Of a stretch of 21,264 nucleotides of DNA, positions 1,809-19,642 are shown piece by piece. The stretch spans positions 1 to 21,264 of the forward strand of contig JAJRZD010000088.1 of assembly GCA_024275415.1 (NCBI GenBank), in the 5' to 3' direction. This stretch comes from an archaeon. Lineage in GTDB: Archaea > Asgardarchaeota > Thorarchaeia > Thorarchaeales > Thorarchaeaceae. The stretch's first letter is position 1; the number at the start of each line of letters is the position of its first letter. The position numbers were made by a program, and so were the translations under genes. A model generated the notes under the pieces. It was not told the DNA's origin. It made no database searches and saw nothing but the letters and a program-made list of their open reading frames with translations.

Positions 1809-1923
1809 GTCAAATCGGGTATTAATTCGTAGATCAGGATATAATAGGCCTTACACCGGCACGGGTTTGGTTCCGTATTGGATGGACTTATATTAATAAT
1901 TGTTAATATATAATAGATTGAAA

Positions 1924-3051
1924 ATGCTTGCTAAACGCAATTTTGTTGCATTGGTTGTCATTTTCGCGATTGTCACGGGATTTGGCATCGCTATTGTGGC
2001 ACTTAACCAGAACGCAGGAACATCCGATGATGACATTGCTCCCAACATCCCAGATAATCGTGCCTACGGATATCCTGTGAACGAAACACTGTTACACGAA
2101 TATGAGAAAAACCTCAATGCCGGTGGGCCGCCTCCAGATGGGATACCTCCTATCGACAAGCCTGAATACTGGACGGCATCAGAGGCAGAAGAATATCTCA
2201 ACGATGCAGACATCGTCTTTGGCTTGGCGCTTGGTGGGGTGATACTTGCATTTCCGCAGAGGGTAATGGTGTGGCATGAGATTGTCAATGAGGTAATCAA
2301 CGGGACACGGGTCACTATCACTTATTGTCCGTTAACTGGCTCAGCCATCGCGTTCCGTGGGAACCTGCCAGGTAACGACACGACTTTTGGTACAAGCGGG
2401 CGTTTAATCAACTCGAATCTCGTGATGTATGACAGAGCCACGAACTCATATTTTCCTCAGATACTCTCGCAGGCAATCAATAAGAATTACCTTGGCTATC
2501 GACTGGAGAAGATCCATATGGTATGGACTCAGTGGGGGAAGTGGAAAGATACCTACCCGGATACCATTGTGCTCTCGACTGACACAGGATATGTTCGAGA
2601 TTACAGCTGGGATCCCTATGGGTCATATTCGGATGCGAACTCATACTACTACAGCGAAGACATCCTCTTCCCCGTAATGAATACCGACGACAGACTATAT
2701 GAGAAGGATGTAGTGATAGGTGTAGAAACCATTCAGGGACAGTATGCCATCCAAAAACAGGTATTGCGAACAGAGAACCTAGTACAGTTCGATATCGGAA
2801 ACGAGAGCTTTGTGGCCTTTTACGACTCTGACCTCGACACTGTACGGACTTTCTCGCGCGAGTTCCAGGGAGTTCTGCTGGACTTCATCTTTGAGAACGG
2901 GACGTTCGTGGACAGGCAGATGGCATACAACTGGTCGGTGCTTGGGGATTCGACAGCGGGCAATCTTGTGGAGATAGCGAACATGGATGTCATGTGGTAC
3001 TCGTGGGTCGCATATTTCCCCAGTACCGGGCTTACCTGTACGAATTGCTGA
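1924..3051 (+). CDS. DUF3179 domain-containing protein, N-terminally anchored or secreted
   Basis: N-terminal hydrophobic helix; family-typical motifs GGPPPDGIPPID, WHEIVN, TYCPLTGS, FGTSGRLINSNLVMYDRAT, W..W...YPDT.VLS and W.AYFP. ATG 1924 preferred over TTG 1900. Confidence 0.85.
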   Translation: MLAKRNFVALVVIFAIVTGFGIAIVALNQNAGTSDDDIAPNIPDNRAYGYPVNETLLHEYEKNLNAGGPPPDGIPPIDKPEYWTASEAEEYLNDADIVFGLALGGVILAFPQRVMVWHEIVNEVINGTRVTITYCPLTGSAIAFRGNLPGNDTTFGTSGRLINSNLVMYDRATNSYFPQILSQAINKNYLGYRLEKIHMVWTQWGKWKDTYPDTIVLSTDTGYVRDYSWDPYGSYSDANSYYYSEDILFPVMNTDDRLYEKDVVIGVETIQGQYAIQKQVLRTENLVQFDIGNESFVAFYDSDLDTVRTFSREFQGVLLDFIFENGTFVDRQMAYNWSVLGDSTAGNLVEIANMDVMWYSWVAYFPSTGLTCTNC

Positions 3052-7224: not shown

Positions 7225-7263
7225 TTTATTGTTTTGCCGCCGTATGCGGTATGTGGTCATTAC

Positions 7264-7965
7264 ATGAATCTTCAGATCATGGCTCCGGCTTACACTGATC
7301 GAGCCCATTTCTTCCTATTTGAACTTTCTAAGGGAGAAGAGGGATTTTCCATCCAGGAGATTCTAAAGAGTTTGGCGTTCTCAATGGTCGACTCGAGCGA
7401 GTGGGTCGATAAGGAGATAGGAACTCGAATCCGACTATTTTCTTCTTCATCTATGCCTGAATACTTTGGGGGATGTATTCTGCCATCTCACGAGATTACC
7501 AAACAGATGTGCCGCCTTGCAAGGGCATTCACATGGACATCTCGGGCATTTGATGTATTGTTCCTGCTATTCATCGCAGAATGGCTTATCGGGCTTCTTG
7601 TATTCGTTGGTGGACTGTCAGTCTTTTTGTCATATATTGGAATACTCATTGCCGTGACATTCTTGTGCTTCCTCATCAATGCGATATTTGCGATCTTGTT
7701 ATTTTTCTATCTTGACCGAAAATCGACTCACCACAACATAGAGATTGCACACAATGTCATCAGATTGTTACTGGAGGGACTGGCAGAGCGGTACAGGGAT
7801 GGATCTATAACTGCAATCAACATTTGCACAAAGCTCGGAAATCGATCTATTGCACATCATCTTCCGAGGGAATTCATAGAAAAGATGAAACCTCTTGGAG
7901 TAAACCACTTGGAAATGGACGCTCGCATCTGGGAGAGTTTTCACTCCAATGGCGCGCTCCAATAA
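7264..7965 (+). CDS. Hypothetical membrane protein (two central TM helices)
   Basis: Long ORF with hydrophobic segments FDVLFLLFIAEWLIGLLVF and YIGILIAVTFLCFLINAIFAILLFFYL. Start uncertain (TTG 7234 or ATG 7264). Confidence 0.65.
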   Translation: MNLQIMAPAYTDRAHFFLFELSKGEEGFSIQEILKSLAFSMVDSSEWVDKEIGTRIRLFSSSSMPEYFGGCILPSHEITKQMCRLARAFTWTSRAFDVLFLLFIAEWLIGLLVFVGGLSVFLSYIGILIAVTFLCFLINAIFAILLFFYLDRKSTHHNIEIAHNVIRLLLEGLAERYRDGSITAINICTKLGNRSIAHHLPREFIEKMKPLGVNHLEMDARIWESFHSNGALQ

Positions 7966-8081
7966 CGAAGAATCACCAGACACATTACAGAAAATCATTG
8001 TGAAACGACATCCCACTTTTTCAGCTATTTAGTTGGTGAATATCAAATGCTTTTAGAGGAAACACCTTAAAGTGTCACACT

Positions 8082-8831
8082 ATGGGGCCATTTCTTCTGG
8101 CACTCTGTGGCATCCCAGCCAGTGGTAAGACGACATTCGCTAGCAGGATTCAGGAACGTTTCTCCTCTGAGGAATGCGAAACAATGCTCGTGAGTACAGA
8201 TGAGTGGAGAAACGACTCGTACTATTCCAACTTCATACCTGAGAAGGAGAATGCAGTGCGGAAAAATGCATTGGAGAAGACAAGACAGGCTCTCTTGCAG
8301 AGAATAAACGTCATTCATGACGACACCAACTATTATGCCAGTATGCGTCATGATCTATATAATCTCGCAATTGAGCACGCGTACGCCTTCGGGGTCGTCT
8401 TTATTCGAACGCCGTTAGATATTGCACTAGAGTGGAATAGGGACAGAGAGAGACCCTTACCGGACAGCGTCATCGAAAAGATCAACGATAGATTAGATGT
8501 GCCTGGTTCCAAATACACTTGGGATACACCCATAGCCACGGTCGATATGGCGAAAGACGACATTGATGGCTGTATAGATACCATCAAGAAGAAGCTTGGT
8601 ATCCTCAGACCGTCCAGACCATTGGGCAAGCCAGTTCCCGGTGATGCTGAGTTTTATGATGGACTTACACGTAGGATAGTCCACGAATTCCTTAAGGAAC
8701 GAAAAGAACTACGGAGGACTCGTGAAATCAGTAGGATCAGAAAACAGGTTCTGAAAGAGGCAATCACGCATAGAATGGACTCTGAGGAGGTAAGGTGGAC
8801 GTTGTTATCAAGATTGGCGAAAGTGGAATGA
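8082..8831 (+). CDS. pstK: L-seryl-tRNA(Sec) kinase (PSTK)
   Basis: P-loop LCGIPASGKTT, DDTNYYASMR motif typical of PSTK, WNRDR lid region and an archaeal-type helical C-terminal domain; directly adjacent to tRNA-Sec and SepSecS. Confidence 0.92.
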   Translation: MGPFLLALCGIPASGKTTFASRIQERFSSEECETMLVSTDEWRNDSYYSNFIPEKENAVRKNALEKTRQALLQRINVIHDDTNYYASMRHDLYNLAIEHAYAFGVVFIRTPLDIALEWNRDRERPLPDSVIEKINDRLDVPGSKYTWDTPIATVDMAKDDIDGCIDTIKKKLGILRPSRPLGKPVPGDAEFYDGLTRRIVHEFLKERKELRRTREISRIRKQVLKEAITHRMDSEEVRWTLLSRLAKVE

Positions 8832-8922
8832 TGGCGGCTCCTCAAGAGAATCGAACTCTAATCGCTTGCACGATCATGGGTTTGAAGCCCACGGCCCGGG
8901 ACCACCCGTGCTATGAGGAGCC
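8832..8922 (-). tRNA. selC: tRNA-Sec (anticodon UCA), archaeal 9/4 fold, CCA encoded
   Basis: Minus strand: GGCTCCTCA TA GCACGGG TGGT CCCGGGC C GTGGG CTTCAAA CCCAT G ATCGT GCAA GCGAT T AGAG TTCGATT CTCT TGAGGAGCC G CCA. This gives a 9-bp acceptor stem, 4-bp T stem, 7-bp D stem with a 4-nt loop (one A.G mismatch), TCA anticodon (8885-8883), long variable arm with a GCAA loop, and G73. Confidence 0.97.
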
Positions 8923-8975
8923 TCAACTGACATAGAGGGGAAACAAGAACGGATGTGATATACGGGACGTTCTGT

Positions 8976-9638
8976 TTAGATGTATCGCTTTATGACCTCG
9001 ATGGTTTCCTGTTTCCATTCGACGCTTTTCTTGGCCAAAGCGGTAGCAATGTCTCCTGGCAACGGTTCCTCGCGTGGCAATGGTTCGATTTTTGAAAGCC
9101 AGCCACTAGTATGGAGGGTGATAGGATGAAGGCCTTCACCTTCTGTCGCCTTGATTATCATCTCCCTACCGTGTGCTACCTGATAATAGACCTCGGAAAG
9201 GGGGCGTTTTTCGAGGATTTGATGTACCAGCCTGTCCCAACATGCCTTGGCCAGTAGCGCCCGTCGCACACGACTCTTCTGTGGTGTGCCCAAAACGCGG
9301 TATTTGTCTAGAGCTGCATTGATGTCAGCGGAAACCGATTCGATGTATGCTGTGATTTCCTGCTCGTTGTCACCTCGGACTTCCAGTTCGATGCTGGCAT
9401 TGTTCCCTTTGACAGAGAAAGTGACGTGCATCGAGTTCTTCTCGGAACGCAATGTAAATCTTGCAGTCCCATGGAATTCTTGGCTCTCGGGTTCGGAATA
9501 GTTTGACAGATATACTCCTGGCGCGGATGCAATCACATACCAGGCAACTCGGAATACCACTGAGGGGTCATCCACATAAGGGATGGTTGCAGTGGCACTA
9601 TAAGGCAACGCGTCATCGTTCAATGGCGGACTCTCCAT
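8976..9638 (-). CDS. Uncharacterised 220-aa protein embedded in the Sec operon
   Basis: ATG-initiated ORF starting 18 nt after the SepSecS stop and ending 53 nt before tRNA-Sec on the same strand. N-terminal half has an alpha/beta pattern, C-terminal half is helical. No family recognised. Confidence 0.8.
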   Translation of the reverse strand: MESPPLNDDALPYSATATIPYVDDPSVVFRVAWYVIASAPGVYLSNYSEPESQEFHGTARFTLRSEKNSMHVTFSVKGNNASIELEVRGDNEQEITAYIESVSADINAALDKYRVLGTPQKSRVRRALLAKACWDRLVHQILEKRPLSEVYYQVAHGREMIIKATEGEGLHPITLHTSGWLSKIEPLPREEPLPGDIATALAKKSVEWKQETIEVIKRYI

Positions 9639-9656
9639 TCTTCAAGCAAGTCCATA

Positions 9657-10967
9657 TTACTTGCTGATTTCCTTATAGAGTTTGGTTGTAGCAGCCTCTA
9701 TATCATTCTTTGTTGCACCTATTGCTGCGTTCATGACCAGATAGGACACTGGATAGTGGTAGATGCAGGATCCATACTGCCCAGACCCCACCGCCCTTGG
9801 TCCTGTGACACGCCTATTGTAGAGGCGTCCACCCAATGACTGTGCGTCAATGCCCTCCAAAGTCATGGCGCAGGCAATCGGGTTTGTTGTGCTCAGGATG
9901 CGCTGGCCTATCCTTTCAGCCAGCTCTGTCAGCCGTTCCTCAAGCAGAGTACGGCATTCCACCTGCTGAGACCTCAGGGTTTCATATCTCCGCAGCCCCA
10001 AAGATAGGAGCGATGCAAGGGTCTGAACGAGTGGGGCAGCACTAGCCCTGCCTGCATAGGACTCGGCAGTTTTCTCAATAATCTCCTCATTTGGTGATAC
10101 AAGGATTGATGAGCCAACAGGAGTCAGGAAGTTCTTGTCACCGCTTTGTATGATCATATCAACCCTTCCAGCGTCAATGGCGCTGCGAATCGTCTGCATG
10201 ATCTCAAGGGACTGAACGCCATATGCATTGTTGACGAACAATGGGACGTCGTGGCTCTGACAGAGCTTGGCAATCTCTTTTATCGGGTCAGGTGTCCGTG
10301 GTGGAAAGAAGGTGGTCGTGGCAAGGACGGCGGTGTTGTCTTCTCTGGAAATGGCATTCTCCAAATAGCCCAGATCGGCGTCCACTGCATCATCGTTCAA
10401 GACGGTCGGAGTAATTTCCAAATCGACACCAGCGATGGCAATCGCCCGTTTAGGCGAAGTGTGGTCTATGCGGGGGAACAGTATCTTCTTGACGTTGTAA
10501 TGTTGTCGGAGAGCTGCTGCTACCAAGGCCAATGACATGCCTGTAGAAAGTGGTAGGACGATACCATACCGGACATTGGGAACCCCTAGTCGCTTCATCG
10601 CATCGAGAGCGACTTGATTCACGATTTGCTGCATTATTGATGCGCCTGGCGCCTTGGGTTGCGGGGCAGTAACATGACCACTTCGGCCTATCCCATGATT
10701 GAAACCTGCTGCTAGCTCAGAAACCAATGGTGATGCTATCCGGGCCTCTCGCTCGCCCACTCTAGCTGCCTCGGGATCTTTGTCCGTGTCAAGGGATGCA
10801 AGTACTTTCAGGATCAGGTCAATTTGGAAATCGCTCAACGACTCATCCAAGAACCTTCGCTGATGGAGAACCTTACGGAGAGGCCCCAAAAGAGCCCCTA
10901 GTGTGGTTTCACTACGCCGAAGCATATTCTTGGGTATCAAATCCTCAATCATCTTCTCAATGTCCAA
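9657..10967 (-). CDS. spcS: O-phosphoseryl-tRNA(Sec) selenium transferase (SepSecS)
   Basis: GEREAR, HGIGRSG...QPKAPG, PRIDHTS, NNAYG, PLP-lysine motif QSGDKNF, YAGRAS and RRVTGPR, all typical of archaeal/eukaryotic SepSecS. Confidence 0.96.
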   Translation of the reverse strand: MDIEKMIEDLIPKNMLRRSETTLGALLGPLRKVLHQRRFLDESLSDFQIDLILKVLASLDTDKDPEAARVGEREARIASPLVSELAAGFNHGIGRSGHVTAPQPKAPGASIMQQIVNQVALDAMKRLGVPNVRYGIVLPLSTGMSLALVAAALRQHYNVKKILFPRIDHTSPKRAIAIAGVDLEITPTVLNDDAVDADLGYLENAISREDNTAVLATTTFFPPRTPDPIKEIAKLCQSHDVPLFVNNAYGVQSLEIMQTIRSAIDAGRVDMIIQSGDKNFLTPVGSSILVSPNEEIIEKTAESYAGRASAAPLVQTLASLLSLGLRRYETLRSQQVECRTLLEERLTELAERIGQRILSTTNPIACAMTLEGIDAQSLGGRLYNRRVTGPRAVGSGQYGSCIYHYPVSYLVMNAAIGATKNDIEAATTKLYKEISK

Positions 10968-12354
10968 ATGAGAACTCCTCCTCTCTCAAAGTTTCATAGA
11001 ATACCTTGTCATTCACATCGACTGACCGGGTAAAGGTCGCTGAAATGACCCCACGAGTGCCAAAGGTGCCAGTCACTTTGCCAGAATGACCAGAAGCAGT
11101 GGACAAACTATGCCCCTGCAAACGCTCTGCAATCTCTTTCGTTGAAGCCAGTCCTTCGACAAGTACATCGTTCTCTCGGATACGAAACACCGTACCCTTA
11201 CGAACTCGTTGCTTGAATAGGATAATCCTGTCGGGCACTTCAGTAACGGTGCCGGTTCCAACAATCCTCATGGCAGTGGGACGCAGGTCGGTTCGCATCA
11301 GTAAGACACGCATTCCAGGTTCCACTCCAATCTTCTTCTGAAGGAGGACAGCTGCCAAGAACAGCGAGTCCTGAGCCTCGTCCAGTACGACTCGGATACC
11401 ATCAGAACGGGTTATGAAAGGGACAATTTCGGCAGTCACTGTAGGCATTCCAATAGTGGCACTCAACACCATACGTTTGGTTACTTTCCCTCGATAGAGT
11501 GGATTCAGTGAGATTGTAGCGTAGACCTTGTCGCTTGCGGGGAGTGAGCTGGGAGCACAGAGATAGTCGCCCCTATGAATGGACTCACTCTTGACATCCG
11601 GGATGTTAACACCGACACGGTTTCCGGCCTGTGCTTTCTCCTGTTGTTCACCGAAGACTTGAATGGAACGTACCCGAACGCGGTCGCTGTGTGGGACGAG
11701 TTGAACAGTGCCTCCTGTGCTGATGGATCCCCTAAGAATCGTCCCAGTCACGACCGTGCCATGTCCCTTCTTCGGGAAAGCATGGTCGATTGGCATGAGG
11801 AACGGGTTCTGCGTGTCCCGAATATGTGGCTTGACAATTCGATAGATAAGAGACTTGAGATCGTCAATTCCTTTGCCGGTCTTGGCGGACACATTGACGA
11901 TATCATAGTTCTTGATGCCTGAGCCATCAAGAATTGAGCGTATGCGACCGGCCATTCGCTCAAGTTCTAGTTCACCAACTAAGTCGCTCTTCGTGACTGC
12001 GACAATGACGGGGTCGATGTCGAAAGCGCCAAGGATGATAATGTGCTCGCCAGTCTGAATCTTTGGTCCCTCGTCAGCCGCGACACAGACTATGGCAGCA
12101 TCGATGATACTCGCACCTGCGACCACACTTCGGATGAGATCGGCATGACCGGGAGCGTCTACGAGCGTGACGAGATATTCATGGAGCTTGAACATAGTGA
12201 AGCCAAGGTCAATGGTTATCCCACGCTCTTCTGATTGGGGATGCTTGTCCAGACCAGCCGTGGAAACTTTTTCACTCATAGCCCGTGCGAGTTCTGTTTT
12301 CCCGTGATCGATATGACCAACAAGCCCAATATGAACCGGGATGTCTTTTGCCAT
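10957..12354 (-). CDS. selB: Selenocysteine-specific elongation factor SelB/aSelB (archaeal type)
   Basis: GHIDHGKT, ERGITIDLGF, DAPGH and TKSD G-motifs, EF-Tu-like domains II and III, and a short C-terminal barrel-type domain IV (no bacterial winged-helix tail). Overlaps the SepSecS start by 11 nt. Confidence 0.94.
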   Translation of the reverse strand: MAKDIPVHIGLVGHIDHGKTELARAMSEKVSTAGLDKHPQSEERGITIDLGFTMFKLHEYLVTLVDAPGHADLIRSVVAGASIIDAAIVCVAADEGPKIQTGEHIIILGAFDIDPVIVAVTKSDLVGELELERMAGRIRSILDGSGIKNYDIVNVSAKTGKGIDDLKSLIYRIVKPHIRDTQNPFLMPIDHAFPKKGHGTVVTGTILRGSISTGGTVQLVPHSDRVRVRSIQVFGEQQEKAQAGNRVGVNIPDVKSESIHRGDYLCAPSSLPASDKVYATISLNPLYRGKVTKRMVLSATIGMPTVTAEIVPFITRSDGIRVVLDEAQDSLFLAAVLLQKKIGVEPGMRVLLMRTDLRPTAMRIVGTGTVTEVPDRIILFKQRVRKGTVFRIRENDVLVEGLASTKEIAERLQGHSLSTASGHSGKVTGTFGTRGVISATFTRSVDVNDKVFYETLREEEFSFGH

Positions 12355-12447
12355 AGTGCTCGTATGAAGTAGGAACGAGTCGCATGTTAAACCTTCGCAG
12401 GAGTCCTATCAGTGTACCTTATTTGTGGCGGTGTGTAACAGGGAGGT

Positions 12448-12855
12448 ATGGTTTCTCGGTCAATGGAAAAGATGATGCTTATCGCAATAGGACTTACCAC
12501 TGTGGTTATTGTTGGAGTGCCGATACTCGCATACACTATAGAGACCTTTTCCAACATATCATCCTTCGAGTCTGCTCAGACATTTGCAGAACGTGTCCAT
12601 AATCTCACTGCTACCGTAGATGGAGGGAACGAAACGGAGTTGTCAGTCGAGATAAGGGTTCCAAAATATGTGGAGATAACCTCCTCGAATAACATACTAA
12701 GCATTGCATATGTAAAGGAGGGCATCCAAGATGGATTTTGGAGCGATTCATACTTGCACGAGATTGTCCTTATTCCCCCCAGCGATTCGGGAATCTACAC
12801 TCTGACAGTCGAATTAGTTGCAGACCAGATACTCGTCACATTCACTTCGATTTAG
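12448..12855 (+). CDS. Small exported/membrane-anchored protein, archaeal pilin-like
   Basis: GGAGGT SD; short N-terminus with Glu followed by a hydrophobic helix (SRSMEKMMLIAIGLTTVVIVGVPIL), then a long helix and a beta-rich domain. Confidence 0.55.
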   Translation: MVSRSMEKMMLIAIGLTTVVIVGVPILAYTIETFSNISSFESAQTFAERVHNLTATVDGGNETELSVEIRVPKYVEITSSNNILSIAYVKEGIQDGFWSDSYLHEIVLIPPSDSGIYTLTVELVADQILVTFTSI

Positions 12856-12942
12856 CAGTCGGAGGCTCACGCTCAGCACAATCTTTTTAATGCACCCACA
12901 AGTTCCCGCCTCGAAGCACACCGAAGACGAGGACTGAATAAC

Positions 12943-13995
12943 ATGGCCGAGGATTCAGATAAGTCGGACACAGAAGAGCTGGACGAGCAGTCCACGTCAT
13001 CGGATGAAACCAAACTGGAGAAAGAACCCAAGGAAAAGAAGGCCAAAGGCAAGAAGAGAGGTAACCCACTTGGCTTGATATTCAACATCAGGATGCTCAG
13101 AAGGATTGTCCAGATTGTCTTTTTCCTCGGGATAAATGCATACATCCTGACTGCATGGTGGGGACAGGAAGCTATCACACAGTTCTGGACTGGTTTTCGA
13201 GACATCCTCCCGACCCTGCCAATCATTTCACCCTTAGAAGCAGAATATGCAGTAATAGGCGGGTCATTTGATGTCATGCAGCGAGAGTTCACAAGTGGGC
13301 TCTTCCCATTCTTCACATTGGGAGCAATGGTCATCATCGTCACAATCCTTGGGAGGTCAGCGTGCGGCTGGGTCTGTCCCATCGGGACGATTCAGGATTT
13401 CGCGACACTTCCGAACAGGGAGAAAATCCGACCATCACCAGGAACCGAGAAGGAACTTGGGAGGATGAAGGCATACATCTTCTTCATCGTTATGTTCTTC
13501 ACTGTCTGGATTGGTGTGAGCGTTGTCCTTGGTACCGCAGATGCTCTGAAGGATGCCCTTGGCATCTTTGCCGATGCTGTGTTCGACCAGTTCAATCCAG
13601 CATACATTCTCTTTGTTATTGTACCAAGCCAGAACTGGCCAACAGGATTTGATAACATGTGGCTCCTTGGGACATGGGGAGCAGTTGTATGGCTACAGAT
13701 CATTTTCGTTGCGCTCGTGGTAATCGTGTCATACTGGTTCCCACGCTGGTTCTGCAGATGGTTGTGTCCAGCAGGCTGGCTCTATGGGGTATTCTCAAGA
13801 GACGCTCTTGTGGGCATTGGCAGGAATCCTGCACGATGCACCCCTGATGTCTGCAACACATGTGAGGTTGTATGTCCGATGAACATCAGGATTCGGAGAT
13901 ACCCGTACCAGCGCGTCCATTCACCAGAATGCATCATGTGTCTTGAATGCAAGAGTCACTGCCCGAACAAGGCAATAGAAATCAAGTTCCTCTAG
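12943..13995 (+). CDS. NapH/MauN-like 4Fe-4S-binding membrane protein
   Basis: TM helices, two CxxxCP motifs (GRSACGWVCPIG, RWFCRWLCPAG) and two C-terminal ferredoxin-type motifs (CTPDVCNTCEVVCPM, CIMCLECKSHCP). Confidence 0.88.
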   Translation: MAEDSDKSDTEELDEQSTSSDETKLEKEPKEKKAKGKKRGNPLGLIFNIRMLRRIVQIVFFLGINAYILTAWWGQEAITQFWTGFRDILPTLPIISPLEAEYAVIGGSFDVMQREFTSGLFPFFTLGAMVIIVTILGRSACGWVCPIGTIQDFATLPNREKIRPSPGTEKELGRMKAYIFFIVMFFTVWIGVSVVLGTADALKDALGIFADAVFDQFNPAYILFVIVPSQNWPTGFDNMWLLGTWGAVVWLQIIFVALVVIVSYWFPRWFCRWLCPAGWLYGVFSRDALVGIGRNPARCTPDVCNTCEVVCPMNIRIRRYPYQRVHSPECIMCLECKSHCPNKAIEIKFL

Positions 13996-13997
13996 GC

Positions 13998-14348
13998 TCA
14001 TTCAAGTGTCGCAATGAAATCGGAGAATTGCCGATTCACATGGTCATATAGTTCCATCAACGAGAGACCATAGTCTGTAATAGTTGCCCCTCCACCACCA
14101 TGATGTCCCCCCTTGTAGGACTGGACGAGCTTGGCATTCAGCTTGGCCTCGATTTTCCTGATTACGCCCCACGCATAGCGATAAGACATCTCAAGATCCT
14201 TTGCTGCTTGCGAAATAGAGCCAGTCGTGTGTATGCTTCTGAGAAGCGCATAGGCACCAGGACCAAGAACATACTCTCCTGCATGTTCCAGCCAGAGCTT
14301 GTAATTCGGTTGTAAGCGAGGGAGAGTCTTGTTCTTTTTTCCGGTCAT
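13998..14348 (-). CDS. Stand-alone ModE-type winged helix-turn-helix regulator
   Basis: LL..IH.TGSISQAAK.L.MSYRYAW..I...E..L...LV....GG..GGGA.IT pattern; no molybdate-binding mop domains. Confidence 0.88.
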   Translation of the reverse strand: MTGKKNKTLPRLQPNYKLWLEHAGEYVLGPGAYALLRSIHTTGSISQAAKDLEMSYRYAWGVIRKIEAKLNAKLVQSYKGGHHGGGGATITDYGLSLMELYDHVNRQFSDFIATLE

Positions 14349-14405
14349 CGTTAAAAGGCAACCAAACGTGTTTGCTCGATTCGAAGCTAGCGCATCCTGA
14401 AGAAT

Positions 14406-14627
14406 CTAGTGACCCCATCTCATACGTTCGGGCTTCGTTTCCTTCTTGAATGCCTTCTTCACTTTCTTCCAATGGTCTTGACAGAGATAGGTCTTCCTCT
14501 TACGCGCGTCTTTGACCTTCAATCCTGAAGATGTGATGCTTTGTCCGATACGCTCTGTAGAGAATGATCTTTTCGAGGGTTTTTCGCACCCTACTATGCT
14601 GCAGGTTTTTTCTTTGGATCGTTCCAC
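14406..14627 (-). CDS. Small basic zinc-finger-like protein (C-x4-C...C-x2-H)
   Basis: CSIVGC...YLCQDHW with a Lys/Arg-rich tail; resembles a conserved small archaeal family. GTG start. Confidence 0.7.
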   Translation of the reverse strand: MERSKEKTCSIVGCEKPSKRSFSTERIGQSITSSGLKVKDARKRKTYLCQDHWKKVKKAFKKETKPERMRWGH

Positions 14628-14686
14628 GGCTCACACTTCAGGAATCTTGATGGATGTGAGCAATTTAACTATAACGACAAGGGAAT

Positions 14687-15673
14687 TCAATGCCCTCGAG
14701 GAGTCAGAACCGGACCCTGTGAGAAATCAAAGAGAACCATCTCATCGGTTCCCAATCGCAGGGAGAGTTGTTTTGAGTCATTCACGACCCCAATCTTGAC
14801 TGCGGTCATCTTGTGGGCATTGGCAATGCTTGTGATTTTATCAAGTTCTTCACGGGATGCACTGACAAGAAAGCCTGACGATATGAACATCCGAATCCAA
14901 TCAGTAAGTGGGATTGATGGTGGACATGACGCATTGACTACATCGAGGTCAATCGTACCTCCTTTCCAAGAATACTCGACGAGCATCCCAGCTGTCCCGA
15001 CAAGTCCGGCGACAGAAACATCCTTTGAAGCATGAAGGAGACCTTTTTCGGCTAAATCGAGCATGGTTGTGAAACGCAGGATGACAGACTCTGAGTCCTT
15101 GTGTGTAACAGTGTCCCATCCTAGAGGATAACTGGAACCCCTCTTCCCTATCGAATCGAATAGAAGGATTAGGACATCATCATCCTCAGCCCCTCCAGCC
15201 GTTAGCATGTGATTCCTTTTTACGGTCCCAGTCGCCGACCCCACGACATAGGTAGAGCTGGAGCTAGGGTTAGTGTGTCCTCGTACAATGGGTACTTGGA
15301 ATCTCTGGGAGCCCTGTATCAGCCCTTCGAGAATAGCATCACCAATCTTTTGATCGGAGTACGACAATGCAACGGCAAAGGAGGTCGGACGCCCCCCAGC
15401 TGCATAGATGTCCATGGTGTTAGCTAGGACCACATTGAAACCTGCTGAAAAGGGATGGTTCAGACAAAGCTCCTCAACGATAGAATCTGTTGTAAGAAGA
15501 ATCACCTCATCGGAGTCAGTGCCTATGGCAGCCGAATCCTCTCCGAGAGAGTGAGGAGTATTGCCATTGTAAGACTGCTCACGCAACTTGCGAAGGATAT
15601 CGGGAAGGACGAACTTTCGAGAGATCCCATCAAAGGTGTGCAAGAGATGAATAATCTCTTTCAGTTCTGTCAA
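14687..15673 (-). CDS. AIR synthase-related protein (PurM/HypE/ThiL/SelD superfamily; methanogenesis marker 2 / sll0787-like)
   Basis: FDGISRK N-terminus, GEDSAAI, TTDSI, LANTMDIYAAGGRP, GHT, and SKDVSVAGLVGT motifs. Lacks the SelD Cys/Sec-x-x-Lys motif. Confidence 0.8.
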   Translation of the reverse strand: MTELKEIIHLLHTFDGISRKFVLPDILRKLREQSYNGNTPHSLGEDSAAIGTDSDEVILLTTDSIVEELCLNHPFSAGFNVVLANTMDIYAAGGRPTSFAVALSYSDQKIGDAILEGLIQGSQRFQVPIVRGHTNPSSSSTYVVGSATGTVKRNHMLTAGGAEDDDVLILLFDSIGKRGSSYPLGWDTVTHKDSESVILRFTTMLDLAEKGLLHASKDVSVAGLVGTAGMLVEYSWKGGTIDLDVVNASCPPSIPLTDWIRMFISSGFLVSASREELDKITSIANAHKMTAVKIGVVNDSKQLSLRLGTDEMVLFDFSQGPVLTPRGH

Positions 15674-15701
15674 GGATAAGCCCCTGATAGGTCTTAAAGC
15701 A

Positions 15702-15827
15702 CTATGGCATTGTCAGATAGCCAATGGCAAACGCTGCCTGGCCCAGCAGGAGCCCAATCGCCAGCATTGACATTCCTACCATGAAATAGATGAGAGCTCT
15801 CATCTCAGATTTCACTTCTTCGAACAA
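15702..15827 (-). CDS. Small single-pass membrane protein (41 aa), not in the supplied ORF track
   Basis: TTG start preceded by AAGGTGA SD; MFEEVKSEMRALIYFMVGMSMLAIGLLLGQAAFAIGYLTMP-TAG; fills the gap in a same-strand gene run. Confidence 0.6.
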   Translation of the reverse strand: MFEEVKSEMRALIYFMVGMSMLAIGLLLGQAAFAIGYLTMP

Positions 15828-15900
15828 GTCTTGTCACCTTCTATACAGGCTGCACTAGTGTTGCTTATAGAGATTGTGGGAAGGCTTGAAACGTCGTGTT

Positions 15901-16212
15901 CTAGAATTCTAGCTTCCCACGTAGCTTCTTCGCATACTTGTCGGGGATAGCAGAAGGATCTTCTATAAGATCATGCTCTGGAACTGTGACAACTCTTTTG
16001 GGGATTTTTTCCCGTTTACATCTTCCGTTGTCAGTCATTTTTCTAATGGTGCACTTGCTATACTGGCACCAAGCTCCATCACACACATCATCAAAAGATG
16101 TGCACCATGCAACCTTTTTGCCGCTTTTCTTACGGAATTTCAGGGTTCCACGGTCTTGTATGCATCTAAAAGATTCACAAAAAGGGGTACATTCTTTGAA
16201 CCCGTCCATCAT
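15901..16212 (-). CDS. Cys-rich conserved hypothetical protein (probable metal binding)
   Basis: Eight Cys in the pattern CTPFC..FRC...WC....DVC.GAWC.Y.KC...DNGRC. ATG 16212 follows an AGGAG; alternative ATG at 16230. Confidence 0.7.
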   Translation of the reverse strand: MMDGFKECTPFCESFRCIQDRGTLKFRKKSGKKVAWCTSFDDVCDGAWCQYSKCTIRKMTDNGRCKREKIPKRVVTVPEHDLIEDPSAIPDKYAKKLRGKLEF

Positions 16213-16233
16213 GAAATCTACTCCTATCATCGT

Positions 16234-17064
16234 TCATTTCGATTTCTTTGCCAACGTGATTGTTTCTTCTAGCGATCTCTTTCCACCTTCAATGATACTG
16301 ATTGCCTTGGAAAGCTCTCTGTTCATGGAGTCATAGGCAGTCTGAGATACATCACCAATCTTGAGTTTCGCGTCAAGCCTGCTGATCTCCCTTCGCAACC
16401 GTTTGATCTCATTGTCCATGGACTTGAGCCACTGCTTAGAGGTCTTGAGTGCTGAAACGAGATCCTTTTGCAAATACTTGATTTTCATTTGCAATCGTTT
16501 CTTCTCCTCCTGAAATACTACTGGATCCAGTGTCTTCTCAGCAGACTTCAGCTTCTCCAGCTTGGCAGTTTGGATCATGAGTTGAGAGAGCGTGTTCTTT
16601 AGAGGTATCTCACCCTCCACAGACCGAAGCTTTGCCCTACGGGATTTGGCTTCATCAAGTTCATGGCGAAGGTCACGCGCCCGAGAGATGAGGAGATCCT
16701 TGTCTGCATGTTCGAGGTCTAACGCATGACGTGTCGAGCTTATCTCTGCAATGATACGATCCAACTCCTCATCAAGTACCTTCATTTCTGCTCTTGCAAA
16801 GATGATGGCCATTGTTTGAGAGTCCATCCCATCAATTGAGAACTGGAACTCGGGGTAAGAGAGATGCTCTGAAATATGGGGTTCCTCTATTTCTTCGTAG
16901 ATCTTGTCAAGCTCAGCTCGATGTGCTTCCAGCACCGCTTCAGGTTCATCGTCCACTGCTTTATTTAGTGGCTTTCCACATTCACTGCAGAATCGTCCTG
17001 AAGGAACCTTGGCACTACAGTGCGGACAGTCTACGAGATTATCGGGCAATCTTTCCCCCACCAT
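16234..17064 (-). CDS. Double zinc-ribbon protein with long coiled coil (C-terminus CdvA-like)
   Basis: CPHC...FCSECG ribbon followed by a heptad-rich helical region ending RLDAKLKIGDVSQTAYDSM. Start ATG 17064 or GTG 17112. Confidence 0.7.
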   Translation of the reverse strand: MVGERLPDNLVDCPHCSAKVPSGRFCSECGKPLNKAVDDEPEAVLEAHRAELDKIYEEIEEPHISEHLSYPEFQFSIDGMDSQTMAIIFARAEMKVLDEELDRIIAEISSTRHALDLEHADKDLLISRARDLRHELDEAKSRRAKLRSVEGEIPLKNTLSQLMIQTAKLEKLKSAEKTLDPVVFQEEKKRLQMKIKYLQKDLVSALKTSKQWLKSMDNEIKRLRREISRLDAKLKIGDVSQTAYDSMNRELSKAISIIEGGKRSLEETITLAKKSK

Positions 17065-17113
17065 ATAAAGCACAAATCGAGCGTTAGAAACGCTCGTCTG
17101 AGTCGGGAACACA

Positions 17114-17434
17114 TCAACTTACTAAGGTAGCAAGCCGACCAGCCACCTGATCCAGTTTGTCTTTCGAGGTAACTATCGAATCAGCACCATAAGTCGGCAA
17201 GACCTTGAGCTCCTCAATCAGTAGTGCGATGGCTTGGCTTGCATCGATGTCTTTCTGATCGAGAGATCCATCAGGGAATGTCAGGGATGCCTCATGCCAT
17301 TTTTCCTTGCTGTCATCAACAGGATAGAGACAGTAAATATAGTCATCATTACTACAGATGAAGGATGGGGTGTTCTCCCAAGCCTGGGCGAGGAGTGCAC
17401 CAAAAGCCTTTGCGTTTTCAGCCTTGTCAGCCAT
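17114..17434 (-). CDS. Hypothetical protein (106 aa)
   Basis: ATG with GGTGA SD, coding-like acidic composition, in a same-strand run. Confidence 0.75.
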   Translation of the reverse strand: MADKAENAKAFGALLAQAWENTPSFICSNDDYIYCLYPVDDSKEKWHEASLTFPDGSLDQKDIDASQAIALLIEELKVLPTYGADSIVTSKDKLDQVAGRLATLVS

Positions 17435-17527
17435 TCAGTATCACCATCGTTGGCTAGATGAGATATGAGGCAATCTGTCAACCAGCCTTATGACCTTTTC
17501 TGACATATAGGTAGATGGAGCCATTCA

Positions 17528-18100
17528 TTATGGCTTGTGCCAAATAAAGGAATAGTAAAATACATCCCCGTCCTCTTTGACAGTGGCAATGATGAACCTC
17601 TTCCTGACGCTGGTCGCAAGCCGTCCCGCTCGTACAATGTCAAGGGGGATGACTCCCTTCCGTTGAGGAATGACGTGGACAAGGAATGGAGCATGATCCT
17701 TTCCCGGACCATGTTCATAGACAGCGAAATCGGTCCCGAATTTCAGGCCAGGGCGTAGGATATAGCCCAGAGAACGTAGGTTCGAGTATACCATAAATCG
17801 GTCTACAAACTCATCGGATTGCTGTCTTCCAATCTTCAAGAGGTCATCAAGGGACAACGGTTCTCCTGAAACAGGATCCCTGACCTGCAATCGACCCTCA
17901 CTAATGAGATATGCACATTCCACTAGCGACAGCTCAAGAGGCTTGTCGAATTCAGGACTCTTTGGTTTCCGTATGCCTACTGGTTGCCCGAAATAGCCGT
18001 TGGCATAGAGTTTCATCCCATCCTGGGGGTTCCACACGATGCCTCGATCGCCAACAAAGTCTGCTGATGCCGGTTTCGAGGACTCGGACAAACTTGCCAC
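17528..18100 (-). CDS. endA: tRNA-intron (splicing) endonuclease
   Basis: LELSLVECAYL, VYSNLRSLGY..RPGLKFGTDFAVY...P...HAPFLV and RLATSVRK, containing the Tyr/His/Lys catalytic triad pattern; single-unit (alpha4-type length) subunit. Confidence 0.93.
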   Translation of the reverse strand: MASLSESSKPASADFVGDRGIVWNPQDGMKLYANGYFGQPVGIRKPKSPEFDKPLELSLVECAYLISEGRLQVRDPVSGEPLSLDDLLKIGRQQSDEFVDRFMVYSNLRSLGYILRPGLKFGTDFAVYEHGPGKDHAPFLVHVIPQRKGVIPLDIVRAGRLATSVRKRFIIATVKEDGDVFYYSFIWHKP

Positions 18101-18101
18101 C

Positions 18102-18791
18102 TTACGTGTTCAATGTCAATGAAAGAGAACGAATCGTGATAGCGACATCCTCGCCAAAGTTTGCGATGTCTTCCATCATGTTCATGAAGTCCCTGAAGCG
18201 TAAGAGTATCCCTATGTCTAGTCCTGAAGGATAGAGGATGGTCACAATCTCCCGAATCAGGATATCGATCTCTTTCTCCAGCGAGCATATCTCATCTACT
18301 TTCTTCATCGAATTCTCCATGTTTATTGACAGGAATCGTACAGCTTCCCGCGCCTCTTTGATCTCATCAATGACTAGCTTACCAAGCCTTTCAATCAGAT
18401 CCTTGAGTTCTCCAGTGGGAGTCCAGGAGGACTTTATTACGGCGTCTAGGTGATTGCAAGCAATCTCTGCGCCGTCCACAAGTTTGTCGGTGTAGTGTAC
18501 AAGTCGCAATAGATCCTCACGTTGCATCAGTGTATGTGCTTTTGCTAGCTCAAGTGTGATGTGACGTTTCACTTCATCGGCCTTTTCCTCAAGTTCGGTG
18601 ACTTTCTTCAAGTCCTCCGTGGACATCGGCTTATTATCACAAAGCCAATCAGGGAGCGCTTTTGCGATGATCTTGTTCGCTGCAAGAGCGATTCGGAAAT
18701 GCTCTTCAAGCATCTGAGTGATGTTCCCGAGCTCGGAGGTGAGGAAACGACTGTTATCAATGACCATCTCGAAGTTTCTCTCCGACCGCAC
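18102..18791 (-). CDS. DUF47 / PhoU-like phosphate transport regulator family protein
   Basis: Duplicated helical repeats with LEEKADEVKR, REDLLRL...D...D, LEKEID and EDIANFGED motifs. Start may be ATG 18767. Confidence 0.85.
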   Translation of the reverse strand: MRSERNFEMVIDNSRFLTSELGNITQMLEEHFRIALAANKIIAKALPDWLCDNKPMSTEDLKKVTELEEKADEVKRHITLELAKAHTLMQREDLLRLVHYTDKLVDGAEIACNHLDAVIKSSWTPTGELKDLIERLGKLVIDEIKEAREAVRFLSINMENSMKKVDEICSLEKEIDILIREIVTILYPSGLDIGILLRFRDFMNMMEDIANFGEDVAITIRSLSLTLNT

Positions 18792-18817
18792 TTCGGTTTT
18801 GGAGTAGATTTAAGTCT

Positions 18818-19642
18818 ATGGTAGGCGCTGAAAACGTCGAGGAAATACAAGTGGAACTCTGGCACATCATAGTTGGGTTGATTCAAGGATTCGTCGAGTG
18901 GCTCCCTATATCCTCAGAAGGGCAGGCAGTGCTGTTCGTCTATAACTTTGGCTCGGTTCCTCCCAGTGAGCTAATTACTCTAGTAGTATGGCTTCATTTG
19001 GGAACGGCACTTGCGGTGATTGCAAGATATCCACGAACCATAGTTGAAGTGCTATCATTGAAAGACAGAGAACTATTTCGCAACTTGCTCGTCGCAACAG
19101 TATGTACTGCGATAACAGCCATTCCACTCTATTTCCTCCTGAAAGATGCAGTGCTACTGTTCCAAGGGGAGATTCTCAATGTCATTGTGGGAGTGCTTCT
19201 TGTAGTTACTGCGGGCGTGTTGTATCTCCCTAAGTTAAGGGCCGATGGGGAGGGCATGGATGAAATCGAGCCAGATGTCCGTGTTTCTGCAATAACGGGA
19301 TTAGTACAGGGTTTCTCAGTATTGCCAGGTCTAAGCAGGTCAGGGTTAACAGTGTCTGCGCTTCTGATGCAGAAAGTGGACAAAGAAACAGCATTGCGAT
19401 TCAGTTTCCTAATGAGTGTCCCGGCAGTGCTCGGGATACTTGCAGTCGAATTCATGACTGGCTCTGCCGTCCTGCCGTCCATCGCTCCTCTAGATTTGCT
19501 GTTCGTAGAGATCATTGTATTCGTTTCAGGATTGGCATCCATGGAGTTCCTCCTCCGCGTCGCAAAAAGGGTCAGCTTCTGGAAATTGTGCTTGCTCTTG
19601 GGAGCAATTGCCATCATCTTTGGACTACCGGCATTAATCTGA
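18818..19642 (+). CDS. uppP: Undecaprenyl-diphosphate phosphatase (UppP/BacA family)
   Basis: GLIQGFVEWLPISSEG, LHLGT, GLVQG..VLPGLSRSG and FSFLMSVPA motifs; multi-pass membrane protein. Confidence 0.92.
   Translation: MVGAENVEEIQVELWHIIVGLIQGFVEWLPISSEGQAVLFVYNFGSVPPSELITLVVWLHLGTALAVIARYPRTIVEVLSLKDRELFRNLLVATVCTAITAIPLYFLLKDAVLLFQGEILNVIVGVLLVVTAGVLYLPKLRADGEGMDEIEPDVRVSAITGLVQGFSVLPGLSRSGLTVSALLMQKVDKETALRFSFLMSVPAVLGILAVEFMTGSAVLPSIAPLDLLFVEIIVFVSGLASMEFLLRVAKRVSFWKLCLLLGAIAIIFGLPALI

What the first reader, a model, noticed from the sequence alone, without database searches (positions are those of the whole stretch)
8082..12354. Compact, near-complete selenocysteine gene cluster (pstK, tRNA-Sec, SepSecS, selB) in a probable Asgard archaeon
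Seen: four Sec-pathway components within 4.3 kb, with selB overlapping SepSecS and tRNA-Sec downstream on the same strand. Known: archaea and eukaryotes share the PSTK/SepSecS route, and Sec machinery has been reported in Loki- and Thorarchaeota. Inference: an operon-like layout makes guilt-by-association usable for finding missing archaeal Sec factors, and implies recoded selenoproteins elsewhere in the genome.
Basis: partly seen in the sequence, partly recalled or inferred. Interest (0 to 1): 0.7.

Follow-up and report, generated by a model that had tools for sequence, protein, structure and literature searches.

The report
Known Thorarchaeal selenocysteine gene cluster
This is the intact gene cluster that an Asgard (Thorarchaeia) archaeon uses to make and insert selenocysteine. 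The arrangement is already described, and the one unexplained gene inside it is probably not a dedicated selenocysteine factor.

Summary
Window 8082-12354 carries PSTK (+), tRNA-Sec, SepSecS and archaeal SelB (all -). It also carries a fifth gene the finding left out, a 220-aa protein of NCBIfam NF045535 'Sel_Asgard', at 8976-9638 between SepSecS and tRNA-Sec.

The genome is a Thorarchaeial MAG. Elsewhere it encodes a Sec-containing SelD and two VhuU-type selenoproteins with eukaryote-like SECIS hairpins, so the pathway is in use.

The same five-gene order occurs in 40 of 69 related loci. SepSecS followed by Sel_Asgard also occurs in other Asgard families. Sec machinery in Thorarchaeia, and an Asgard-only neighbour of secS/efSec/pstk, are already published, and this scan has reported the same cluster on other genomes.

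I tested the guilt-by-association idea on Sel_Asgard, and it does not track the Sec trait:
- It stays intact after at least five independent losses of the Sec genes in Thorarchaeia.
- It is under purifying selection between two Sec-less sisters (dN/dS about 0.1).
- It is present in whole Sec-less families (19/19, 4/4).
- It is undetected in one Sec-using family (0/5).

Its confident model has an alpha/beta domain plus a Vps28-C-terminal-like helical bundle, which suggests an adaptor rather than an enzyme.

Verdict: real, ordinary, already known.

The parts
8082..8831 (+). [quoted passage not shown]
   Evidence: Best NCBIfam match is TIGR03574 selen_PSTK, 153 bits over the full length, below the 290.5 equivalog cut-off. 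Pfam KTI12/PSTK family PF08433, 113 bits. Its only PDB matches are M. jannaschii PSTK, E 8e-27. The gene is deleted together with the other Sec genes in 7 related loci. It is absent genome-wide in the 5 Sec-less genomes searched, best 30.8 bits.
8832..8922 (-). tRNA-Sec, anticodon UCA, 9/4 fold, 7-bp D stem, 5-bp variable arm, G73 and encoded CCA
   Evidence: ARAGORN. Rfam RF01852 57.9 bits against a gathering score of 47. MFE cloverleaf -41.4 kcal/mol, z -3.4. Across 35 homologues, 98.4% of cells are paired and 18 of 31 pairs show compensatory changes, with 0 of 500 shuffles as high.
8976..9638 (-). Sel_Asgard family protein (220 aa, pI 5.7). An Asgard-only two-domain adaptor-like protein, linked to SepSecS by gene order but not tied to the Sec trait
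   Evidence: NF045535 213 bits, cut-off 132. No Pfam family. AF2 model pLDDT 93.4, pTM 0.89. The C-terminal domain best matches the Vps28 C-terminal bundle 2j9w_A, Z 13.1, rmsd 2.5, 100 of 101 residues. hhalign probability 96.7%, E 4e-10, to the C-terminus of ~790-aa Loki proteins that also hit PF03997 VPS28. Phyletic decoupling from Sec.
9657..10967 (-). O-phosphoseryl-tRNA(Sec) selenium transferase (SepSecS), 436 aa, TTG start overlapping the end of selB by 11 nt
   Evidence: TIGR03531 449 bits, cut-off 225. PF05889 396 bits. SepCysS models score only 16-22 bits. The DKNF lysine (K278) and R95, H169 and R307 are invariant in 24 homologues. Junction sequence with GGAGGAG upstream of the TTG.
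10957..12354 (-). Archaeal selenocysteine-specific elongation factor (aSelB/EFSec), 465 aa, first gene of the selB-SepSecS-Sel_Asgard run
   Evidence: TIGR00475 selB 270 bits, cut-off 242. EF-Tu, EF-1alpha and aIF2-gamma models all score far below their cut-offs. GTP_EFTU, domain 2, PF21440 aSelB_III at 45 bits (cut-off 19), and a Tsr1/eEFSec-type C-terminal domain.
12355..12447 (.). 93-nt divergent intergenic region upstream of selB, the likely promoter region (inferred only)
   Evidence: The sequence shows an A/T-rich TTTAAC box about 32 nt upstream of the selB ATG. No transcript data could be obtained.

Best explanation
The stretch is the ordinary chromosomal selenocysteine-encoding locus of a Thorarchaeial (Asgard) archaeon. 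It works by the archaeal/eukaryotic two-step route.

1. tRNA-Sec (9/4 fold, UCA anticodon) is charged with serine by the normal SerRS.
2. PSTK phosphorylates Ser-tRNA(Sec).
3. SepSecS, a PLP enzyme, replaces the phosphate with selenium. The donor is selenophosphate made by SelD, which is itself a selenoprotein encoded on another contig.
4. aSelB-GTP carries Sec-tRNA(Sec) to UGA codons of mRNAs that have eukaryote-like SECIS hairpins just after the coding region. In this genome those are two vhuU genes and selD.

selB, SepSecS and the fifth gene, Sel_Asgard, are probably one transcript with translational coupling. tRNA-Sec follows on the same strand and PSTK converges on it.

Sel_Asgard is a small acidic protein with two domains: an alpha/beta domain and a Vps28-C-terminal-like four-helix bundle. 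It is most likely a protein-binding adaptor whose main role does not depend on selenocysteine. Its place beside SepSecS is old, conserved gene order inside a wider conserved Asgard block.

What is shown: the gene identities, the tRNA fold, selenoprotein genes with SECIS-like hairpins, conserved gene order, and the decoupling of Sel_Asgard from the Sec trait.

What is inferred from the named families: the enzymatic steps, co-transcription, and the adaptor role.
For: - Gene identities.
- tRNA-Sec covariation.
- SelD with TGA at the canonical position (THGUSCK).
- Two VhuU genes (DCULSCAAH) directly after truncated VhuA-type hydrogenase genes.
- SECIS-like hairpins, with a 9-bp upper stem flanked by AUGA and GA. 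They fit the model in PMC11227280.
- Gene order: all five genes in the same order in 40 of 69 loci. SepSecS followed by Sel_Asgard also occurs in families f4, f16 and f22.
- Coupling signals: an 11-nt overlap and an 18-nt gap.

Sel_Asgard is not Sec-dedicated:
- Seven Thor loci keep it between intact flanks with every Sec gene gone or reduced to stubs.
- Five of those genomes lack SepSecS, SelD, tRNA-Sec and PSTK anywhere.
- A tree needs at least 5 independent losses.
- dN/dS is 0.096 between the Sec-less sisters L066 and L069.
- Family tallies, Sel_Asgard versus SepSecS: f14 19/19 vs 0/19, f29 4/4 vs 0/4, f28 2/3 vs 0/3, f6 3/4 vs 0/4. Family f30 is the reverse, 0/5 vs 5/5, with Sec-containing SelD.
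- The invariant residues F29, D135, Y151, R158 and E159 are kept in both Sec-using and Sec-less lineages.

Fold.
Against: - PSTK scores below NCBI's equivalog cut-off (153 vs 290.5 bits), and I built no tree with KTI12 outgroups.
- No transcript data exist for co-transcription.
- The SepSecS-Sel_Asgard adjacency is kept across at least four GTDB families in different Asgard lineages. That is more than random synteny usually gives and still argues for some functional link with Sec.
- Most genomes are MAGs, so absence calls are soft. The 69 loci were found through Sel_Asgard itself, which biases toward retention. Within the host's family, 5 of 13 SepSecS-less genomes lack Sel_Asgard too.
- tRNA-Sec in family f30 did not reach Rfam's threshold, so Sec use there rests on SepSecS plus a TGA-containing SelD.
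- The Vps28-like assignment rests on a Z score at the edge of what helical bundles give by chance, plus a sequence bridge at Pfam's threshold.
Confidence: 0.85

Rival explanations
1. Sel_Asgard is a dedicated selenocysteine factor. It could be the missing archaeal SECIS-binding adaptor (an SBP2 analogue), or a SepSecS/tRNA-Sec/selenophosphate-handling partner, co-translated with SepSecS.
For: It always lies directly downstream of SepSecS on the same strand in Sec-using Thor, Loki and two further families. The gap here is 18 nt. NCBIfam names the family 'putative selenocysteine system protein'. PMC11227280 flags such a neighbour. No SBP2 is known in archaea.
Against: - It is kept intact and under purifying selection after at least 5 independent losses of the Sec genes.
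- It is present in whole Sec-less families, and undetected in a Sec-using family.
- Its conserved residues are the same in Sec-using and Sec-less lineages.
- It is acidic, pI 5.7, and has no RNA-binding fold match.
Confidence: 0.12
2. The genes are non-Sec paralogues (KTI12, EF-1alpha/aIF2-gamma, SepCysS) that happen to lie together.
For: PSTK falls below its equivalog cut-off, and Pfam files it under the shared KTI12 family.
Against: - SepSecS and SelB pass their curated cut-offs, while the paralogue models fail theirs by wide margins.
- A bona fide tRNA-Sec lies in the cluster.
- The kinase matches only PSTK structures and disappears with the Sec trait.
- A Sec-containing SelD and selenoprotein genes exist in the genome.
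Confidence: 0.01
3. The layout is inherited synteny and not one operon. selB-SepSecS-Sel_Asgard, tRNA-Sec and PSTK would be separate transcription units with no shared regulation, and the neighbours carry no functional information.
For: - PSTK is on the opposite strand.
- A 53-nt spacer with an A/T-rich TATATC stretch precedes the tRNA.
- The whole 12-kb neighbourhood, including the housekeeping genes EndA, UppP and TFB, is conserved across Asgard families with or without Sec.
Against: The 11-nt overlap and the 18-nt gap point to co-transcription of at least the three protein genes. The gene order survives across families.
Confidence: 0.3

Closest known systems
Asgard archaeal Sec-encoding system (Lokiarchaeota: Mariotti et al. 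2016, PMC4989117; Asgard-wide: Huang et al. 2024, PMC11227280)
   Same: Same component set: tRNA-Sec, PSTK, SepSecS, aSelB/EFSec and a Sec-containing SelD. Same selenoprotein families (SelD, VhuU/FrhA). Same eukaryote-like SECIS hairpins. Thorarchaeia are reported there as 77% Sec-users.
   Different: In the first Lokiarchaeum assembly the genes lay on separate contigs, except EFsec and tRNA-Sec. Here, and in 40 of 69 Thor loci, four Sec components plus Sel_Asgard are packed into 4.3 kb. SelD is elsewhere.
Methanococcales Sec machinery (M. jannaschii / M. maripaludis PSTK, SepSecS, aSelB)
   Same: Same two-step PSTK/SepSecS chemistry and the same aSelB domain plan. The PSTK here aligns over its full length with the M. 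jannaschii PSTK structures.
   Different: The methanogen genes are scattered and use the archaeal GAA_A-type SECIS. Here the SECIS has an AUGA...GA core. No Sel_Asgard homologue is found outside Asgard: 0 of 14 control genomes.
NCBIfam NF045535 'Sel_Asgard', putative selenocysteine system protein
   Same: The 220-aa gene is a clear member, 213 bits against a cut-off of 132. It sits where the family name implies, beside SepSecS.
   Different: The name implies a Sec function. The distribution measured here does not support a Sec-dedicated role.
Vps28 C-terminal domain (ESCRT-I), PF03997
   Same: The C-terminal four-helix bundle (residues 115-217) superposes on yeast Vps28-CTD 2j9w_A at Z 13.1, rmsd 2.5 A, 100 of 101 residues. 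The whole protein is homologous to the C-terminus of ~790-aa Loki proteins (hhalign 96.7%), and the last ~100 residues of those proteins hit PF03997 at 24-29 bits.
   Different: No Sel_Asgard sequence hits PF03997 directly. The N-terminal domain is alpha/beta, like an adaptin-appendage platform or TBP-like fold, and not the helical Vps28 N-domain. There is no ESCRT gene context.

Membership tests
Archaeal/eukaryotic Sec-encoding system | tRNA-Sec with UCA anticodon, 9-bp acceptor and 4-bp T stem, long variable arm | tested here: met
   Covariation on 35 homologues: 18 of 31 pairs compensatory and 98.4% of cells paired.
Archaeal/eukaryotic Sec-encoding system | PSTK: passes the curated PSTK model | tested here: inconclusive
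   TIGR03574 is the best hit over the full length, but at 153 bits it is below the 290.5 cut-off. The only PDB matches are PSTK. No tree with KTI12 was built.
Archaeal/eukaryotic Sec-encoding system | PSTK: distribution follows the Sec trait (a KTI12 would not) | tested here: met
   Deleted together with SelB, SepSecS and tRNA-Sec in 7 loci. Absent from the 5 Sec-less genomes searched, best 30.8 bits.
Archaeal/eukaryotic Sec-encoding system | SepSecS above the curated cut-off, with the PLP lysine | tested here: met
   TIGR03531 449 bits against 225. The invariant DKNF lysine K278 is present. Its role as the PLP lysine is from my knowledge of the M. maripaludis structure, not tested here.
Archaeal/eukaryotic Sec-encoding system | Sec-specific elongation factor of the archaeal type | tested here: met
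   TIGR00475 270 bits against 242. PF21440 aSelB_III. The match covers model positions 2-288 of 581, so the bacterial SECIS-binding C-terminus is not matched.
Archaeal/eukaryotic Sec-encoding system | SelD and at least one selenoprotein gene with a SECIS in the same genome | tested here: met
   SelD 211.7 bits with 1 TGA (THGUSCK) on contig C127. Two vhuU genes with DCULSCAAH. SECIS-like hairpins.
NF045535 Sel_Asgard | Score above the curated cut-off | tested here: met
   213.3 bits against 132. One copy in the genome.
Dedicated Sec-pathway factor (claim made for Sel_Asgard) | Presence and absence follow the Sec trait | tested here: not met
   Sel_Asgard is retained in Sec-less genomes and families, and is undetected in Sec-using family f30.
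VPS28 (PF03997) | Direct match to the family model | tested here: not met
   No hit for 12 diverse members at E<=5, nor anywhere in the genome. The only support is structural and transitive.
HEPN / RnlA-type RNase | Rx4-6H catalytic motif in the helical domain | tested here: not met
   The invariant residues are D135, Y151, R158 and E159, with no conserved His 4-6 residues after the Arg. RnlA was only a borderline Foldseek hit, E 1.2e-3 and TM 0.27.

The most novel reading that the evidence does not exclude
Sel_Asgard is a moonlighting adaptor. Its Vps28-CTD-like bundle has a Sec-independent housekeeping role, perhaps with the small basic zinc-ribbon protein c4 that is its immediate neighbour in Sec-less lineages. 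In Sec-using Asgard it additionally bridges SepSecS or aSelB to Sec-tRNA or the eukaryote-like SECIS. That would make it an archaeal forerunner or analogue of SBP2/SECp43.
Probability: 0.12. Interest if true: 0.75.

Novelty: already known. Interest (0 to 1): 0.3.

Why it matters
The cluster adds nothing new about how Asgard archaea encode selenocysteine. It is a clean, complete example of a published system.

The useful part is a caution. The only uncharacterised gene inside the cluster is already named 'putative selenocysteine system protein' in NCBI annotation and has been proposed as a candidate factor. It does not behave like a Sec-dedicated gene across about 400 Asgard genomes. Anyone looking for the archaeal SECIS-binding factor should not rely on this gene's position alone.

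Its confident two-domain model, with a Vps28-CTD-like bundle, gives a concrete starting point for binding experiments.

Tried and rejected
- **Complex prediction.** SepSecS + c4 + Sel_Asgard, with Sel_Asgard as the scored partner, gave no answer: score 0.00 against a mark of 0.32. This is neither for nor against binding.
- **RNA runs.** No RNA holder was listed for window 8000-12500, so co-transcription could not be tested.
- **RnlA/HEPN resemblance.** The Foldseek top hit was borderline, E 1.2e-3 and TM 0.27. It is not among the 50 best by VIA Z and the Rx4-6H motif is absent. Rejected.
- **Wider fold searches.** The wide VIA search gave only per-domain generic matches, Z 9-11.5. The ESM Atlas shape search gave TM <0.5. 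The Atlas feature search gave no usable hit.
- **Profile search of PDB sequences.** Sel_Asgard gave nothing below E 0.1.
- **Rfam on the selD locus.** No SECIS family match. The hairpins were found by eye and by folding.
- **Genome-wide Cys/TGA self-comparison screen**. It found no further convincing selenoprotein, but it cannot see families without a Cys paralogue.
- **Motif search for DPUxxC**. It found nothing, because the local VhuU motif is DCUxxC.
- **ORF pair 15901-17112 read through its TGA**. It looked like a possible selenoprotein. The downstream ORF has its own ATG two codons after the TGA. In related loci the matches to the two ORFs are separated by up to about 45 nt. Rejected.
- **c4 versus the ModE-like HTH at 13998-14348.** Not homologous.


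Full report
**What is there.** The window is a whole 21,264-bp contig (C69) of a 3.5-Mb, 127-contig MAG, 92.9% complete.

- ARAGORN finds one tRNA, tRNA-SeC(tca), at 8832-8922 on the minus strand. Rfam RF01852 scores it 57.9 bits against a gathering score of 47.
- 8082-8831 (+) is a P-loop kinase. Its best NCBIfam model is archaeal PSTK (TIGR03574, 153 bits, full length, below the 290.5 cut-off). Its only PDB matches are the M. jannaschii PSTK structures.
- 9657-10967 (-) is SepSecS: TIGR03531 449 bits against 225. The SepCysS models reach only 16-22 bits.
- 10957-12354 (-) is an archaeal SelB: TIGR00475 270 bits against 242, plus PF21440 aSelB_III. EF-Tu, EF-1alpha and aIF2-gamma models score far under their cut-offs.
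- selB and SepSecS overlap by 11 nt, with GGAGGAG ahead of the SepSecS TTG start.

The finding omitted one gene. Between SepSecS and the tRNA lies a 220-aa ORF at 8976-9638 (-), 18 nt after SepSecS and 53 nt before the tRNA. It is a clear member of NCBIfam NF045535 'Sel_Asgard, putative selenocysteine system protein', 213 bits against 132.

**The tRNA.** It folds into a 9-bp acceptor, 7-bp D stem (one A.G mismatch), 6-bp anticodon stem, 5-bp variable arm and 4-bp T stem, with G73 and an encoded CCA. On 35 homologous tRNA-Sec genes from related loci, 98.4% of cells form standard pairs and 18 of 31 pairs show compensatory changes. No shuffle (0 of 500) and no slid register comes close.

**Is the pathway used?** Yes.
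- SelD lies on contig C127 (211.7 bits) with one in-frame TGA at the canonical site, THGUSCK.
- Two truncated VhuA-type hydrogenase genes (contigs C97, C46) are each followed by a small VhuU-type gene reading RCYDCULSCAAH.
- A conserved hairpin follows each vhuU gene: a 9-bp upper stem and an 8-nt apical loop, flanked by AUGA on the 5' side and GA on the 3' side. A type-II-like hairpin follows selD. Both fit the eSECIS-like models of PMC11227280.
- In all three genes the terminal UGA stop lies inside the SECIS core.

**Host and conservation.** The closest homologues of the 220-aa protein are all from Thorarchaeota MAGs, and some are already annotated 'putative selenocysteine system protein'. 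A scan of one genome per species gave 69 loci.
- 40 loci carry SelB, SepSecS, Sel_Asgard, tRNA-Sec and PSTK in the same order.
- 19 are cut by contig ends or rearranged downstream, and 3 do not fit these classes.
- 7 have both flanks but no Sec genes.

The adjacency SepSecS then Sel_Asgard also occurs in three other GTDB families, here coded f4, f16 and f22. Family f22 is probably Lokiarchaeia.

**What is already published.** Mariotti et al. 2016 described the Loki Sec machinery and the absence of SBP2. Huang et al. 2024 surveyed more than 400 Asgard genomes and found 77% of Thorarchaeia use Sec. They mention an Asgard-only hypothetical protein often next to secS, efSec and pstk. The cluster and the guilt-by-association idea are therefore not new. 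This scan has also reported the same cluster, with the same conclusion, on other genomes. I looked those up after my own tests.

**Testing guilt by association on Sel_Asgard.**

1. *Local deletions.* Seven Thor loci keep Sel_Asgard between the usual flanks (a 135-aa ORF upstream, TFB downstream), while SelB, SepSecS, tRNA-Sec and PSTK are gone. In two of them (L063, L071) the Sec genes are reduced to stubs. In six of the seven the Sel_Asgard ORF is full-length, 211-224 aa. In L071 the first ATG gives only 161 aa, but an alternative start codon lies further upstream.
2. *Whole genomes.* Five of these genomes have no SepSecS, no SelD above cut-off (best 95 bits against 212 here), no tRNA-Sec above Rfam's threshold and no PSTK.
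3. *Independent events.* A tree of three flanking or in-locus proteins for 50 loci needs at least five separate losses.
4. *Selection.* Between the two Sec-less sisters L066 and L069, Sel_Asgard has dN/dS 0.096.
5. *The host's own family.* Among 86 genomes (85 relatives plus this one), 13 lack SepSecS. Six of these, at 73-93% completeness, keep a strong Sel_Asgard, two keep weak or partial matches, and five lack both.
6. *Phylum level,* the same 400 genomes for both models, Sel_Asgard versus SepSecS: f14 19/19 vs 0/19, f29 4/4 vs 0/4, f28 2/3 vs 0/3, f6 3/4 vs 0/4. Family f30 is 0/5 vs 5/5. In f30, both 100%-complete genomes and one incomplete one encode a TGA-containing SelD. Its tRNA-Sec did not reach Rfam's threshold.
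7. *Conserved residues.* F29, D135, Y151, R158 and E159 are invariant in Sec-using and Sec-less lineages alike.

Caveats: these are MAGs, the 69 loci were ascertained through Sel_Asgard itself, and a very divergent homologue in f30 could be missed.

**Wider context.** Sel_Asgard sits in an older conserved block: UppP, a PhoU_div protein, tRNA-splicing endonuclease EndA, a 106-aa ORF, a zinc-ribbon coiled-coil protein, a Cys-rich ORF, an AIR-synthase-like protein, a 73-aa basic zinc-ribbon protein ('c4', window 14406-14627), a ModE-like HTH, and a NapH-like ferredoxin. Sec-less families keep this block, with c4 immediately next to Sel_Asgard. Sec-using families have SelB-SepSecS inserted upstream of Sel_Asgard. 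The other neighbours of the cluster are therefore poor candidates for Sec factors too.

**What Sel_Asgard looks like.** AlphaFold2 with a 27-sequence alignment gives pLDDT 93.4 and pTM 0.89.
- Residues 10-115 form an alpha/beta domain, and residues 115-220 a helical bundle.
- The N-domain resembles adaptin/COPI appendage platform and Bet v 1-like folds, Z about 10-11. This is generic.
- The C-domain's best match is the yeast Vps28 C-terminal domain, 2j9w_A: Z 13.1, rmsd 2.5 A, 100 of 101 residues. That is at the edge of what bundles give by chance.
- A sequence bridge supports it. The weak 'second copies' of Sel_Asgard in Loki genomes are the C-terminal ~190 residues of ~790-aa proteins with DDRGK/UFL1/PCI winged helices.
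- The last ~100 residues of those proteins hit Pfam VPS28 at 24-29 bits against a gathering score of 24.5.
- hhalign of the Sel_Asgard alignment against one of them gives 96.7% probability, E 4e-10, over 195 columns.
- No Sel_Asgard sequence hits VPS28 directly, so I do not file it as a Vps28 family member.
- The protein is acidic, pI 5.7, and has no RNA-binding or enzyme-like match.

I read it as a protein-binding adaptor.

**Verdict.** The system is the known Asgard Sec-encoding system in its usual Thorarchaeial arrangement. The conserved SepSecS-Sel_Asgard adjacency keeps a minority reading alive: a moonlighting adaptor that also serves Sec decoding, about 12%.

Noticed in passing
window 14406-14627 (-): A 73-aa basic (pI about 10) zinc-ribbon-like ORF ('c4'; invariant C9, C14, C49, H52 and a Lys-rich tail), lying between the AIR-synthase-like gene and the ModE-like HTH. 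It is conserved in 50 Thor loci. In Sec-less Asgard families (loci L103-L106) it is the immediate neighbour of Sel_Asgard. No Pfam or NCBIfam match.
   Followed up: partly
window 12448-19642: A conserved Asgard gene block around the Sec cluster: a 135-aa ORF, NapH-like ferredoxin, ModE-like HTH, c4, an AIR-synthase-like protein (PurM/SelD superfamily; methanogenesis-marker-2/sll0787-like), a Cys-rich 109-aa ORF, a zinc-ribbon coiled-coil 292-aa ORF, a 106-aa ORF, EndA, PhoU_div and UppP. The AIR-synthase-like gene also lies next to the Sec genes in families f4 and f16.
   Followed up: partly
window 15901-17112 (-): Two ORFs in the same frame, separated by TGA plus one codon. Read through, they look like a 403-aa selenoprotein, but the second ORF has its own ATG. 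In related loci the matches to the two ORFs are separated by up to about 45 nt.
   Followed up: yes
window 7234-7965 (+): A 243-aa ORF with no family match, between TFB and PSTK. None of the 69 related loci has a homologue there (tblastn, E 1e-8); in those loci TFB directly flanks PSTK. It may be a lineage-specific insertion or a spurious ORF.
   Followed up: no
G000 C97:3818-3887 (-), C46:3738-3807 (-), C127:35222-35287 (-): eSECIS-like hairpins of the two vhuU genes and of selD. In each, the gene's terminal UGA stop codon is part of the xUGA core of the SECIS. The two vhuU copies differ by a U-A to U-G change that keeps the stem paired.
   Followed up: partly
L071 (7261-7910, 9569-9748) and L063 (7636-7854): Related Thor loci with short remnants of SelB, SepSecS and PSTK around a Sel_Asgard ORF that is still open. 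This is Sec loss caught in progress.
   Followed up: partly
L113:3429-5795 (-), L114:1658-4030 (+): Loki proteins of about 790 aa combining DDRGK, UFL1 and PCI winged-helix regions with a C-terminal Sel_Asgard-like module whose last ~100 residues hit Pfam VPS28. The architecture links UFM1-ligase-like and ESCRT-I-like pieces.
   Followed up: partly
G310-G314 (family f30); loci L108, L109: An Asgard family with SepSecS (5/5) and a TGA-containing SelD (3/5), but no detectable Sel_Asgard and no tRNA-Sec above Rfam's threshold. SepSecS stands alone there, without SelB or PSTK nearby.
   Followed up: partly
window 1900-3051 (+): A DUF3179 (PF11376) protein of 383 aa. A 2026 review (PMC13188914) lists PF11376 among families with selenoprotein members (UxxC/T). 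I did not check whether this copy has Cys at that site.
   Followed up: no
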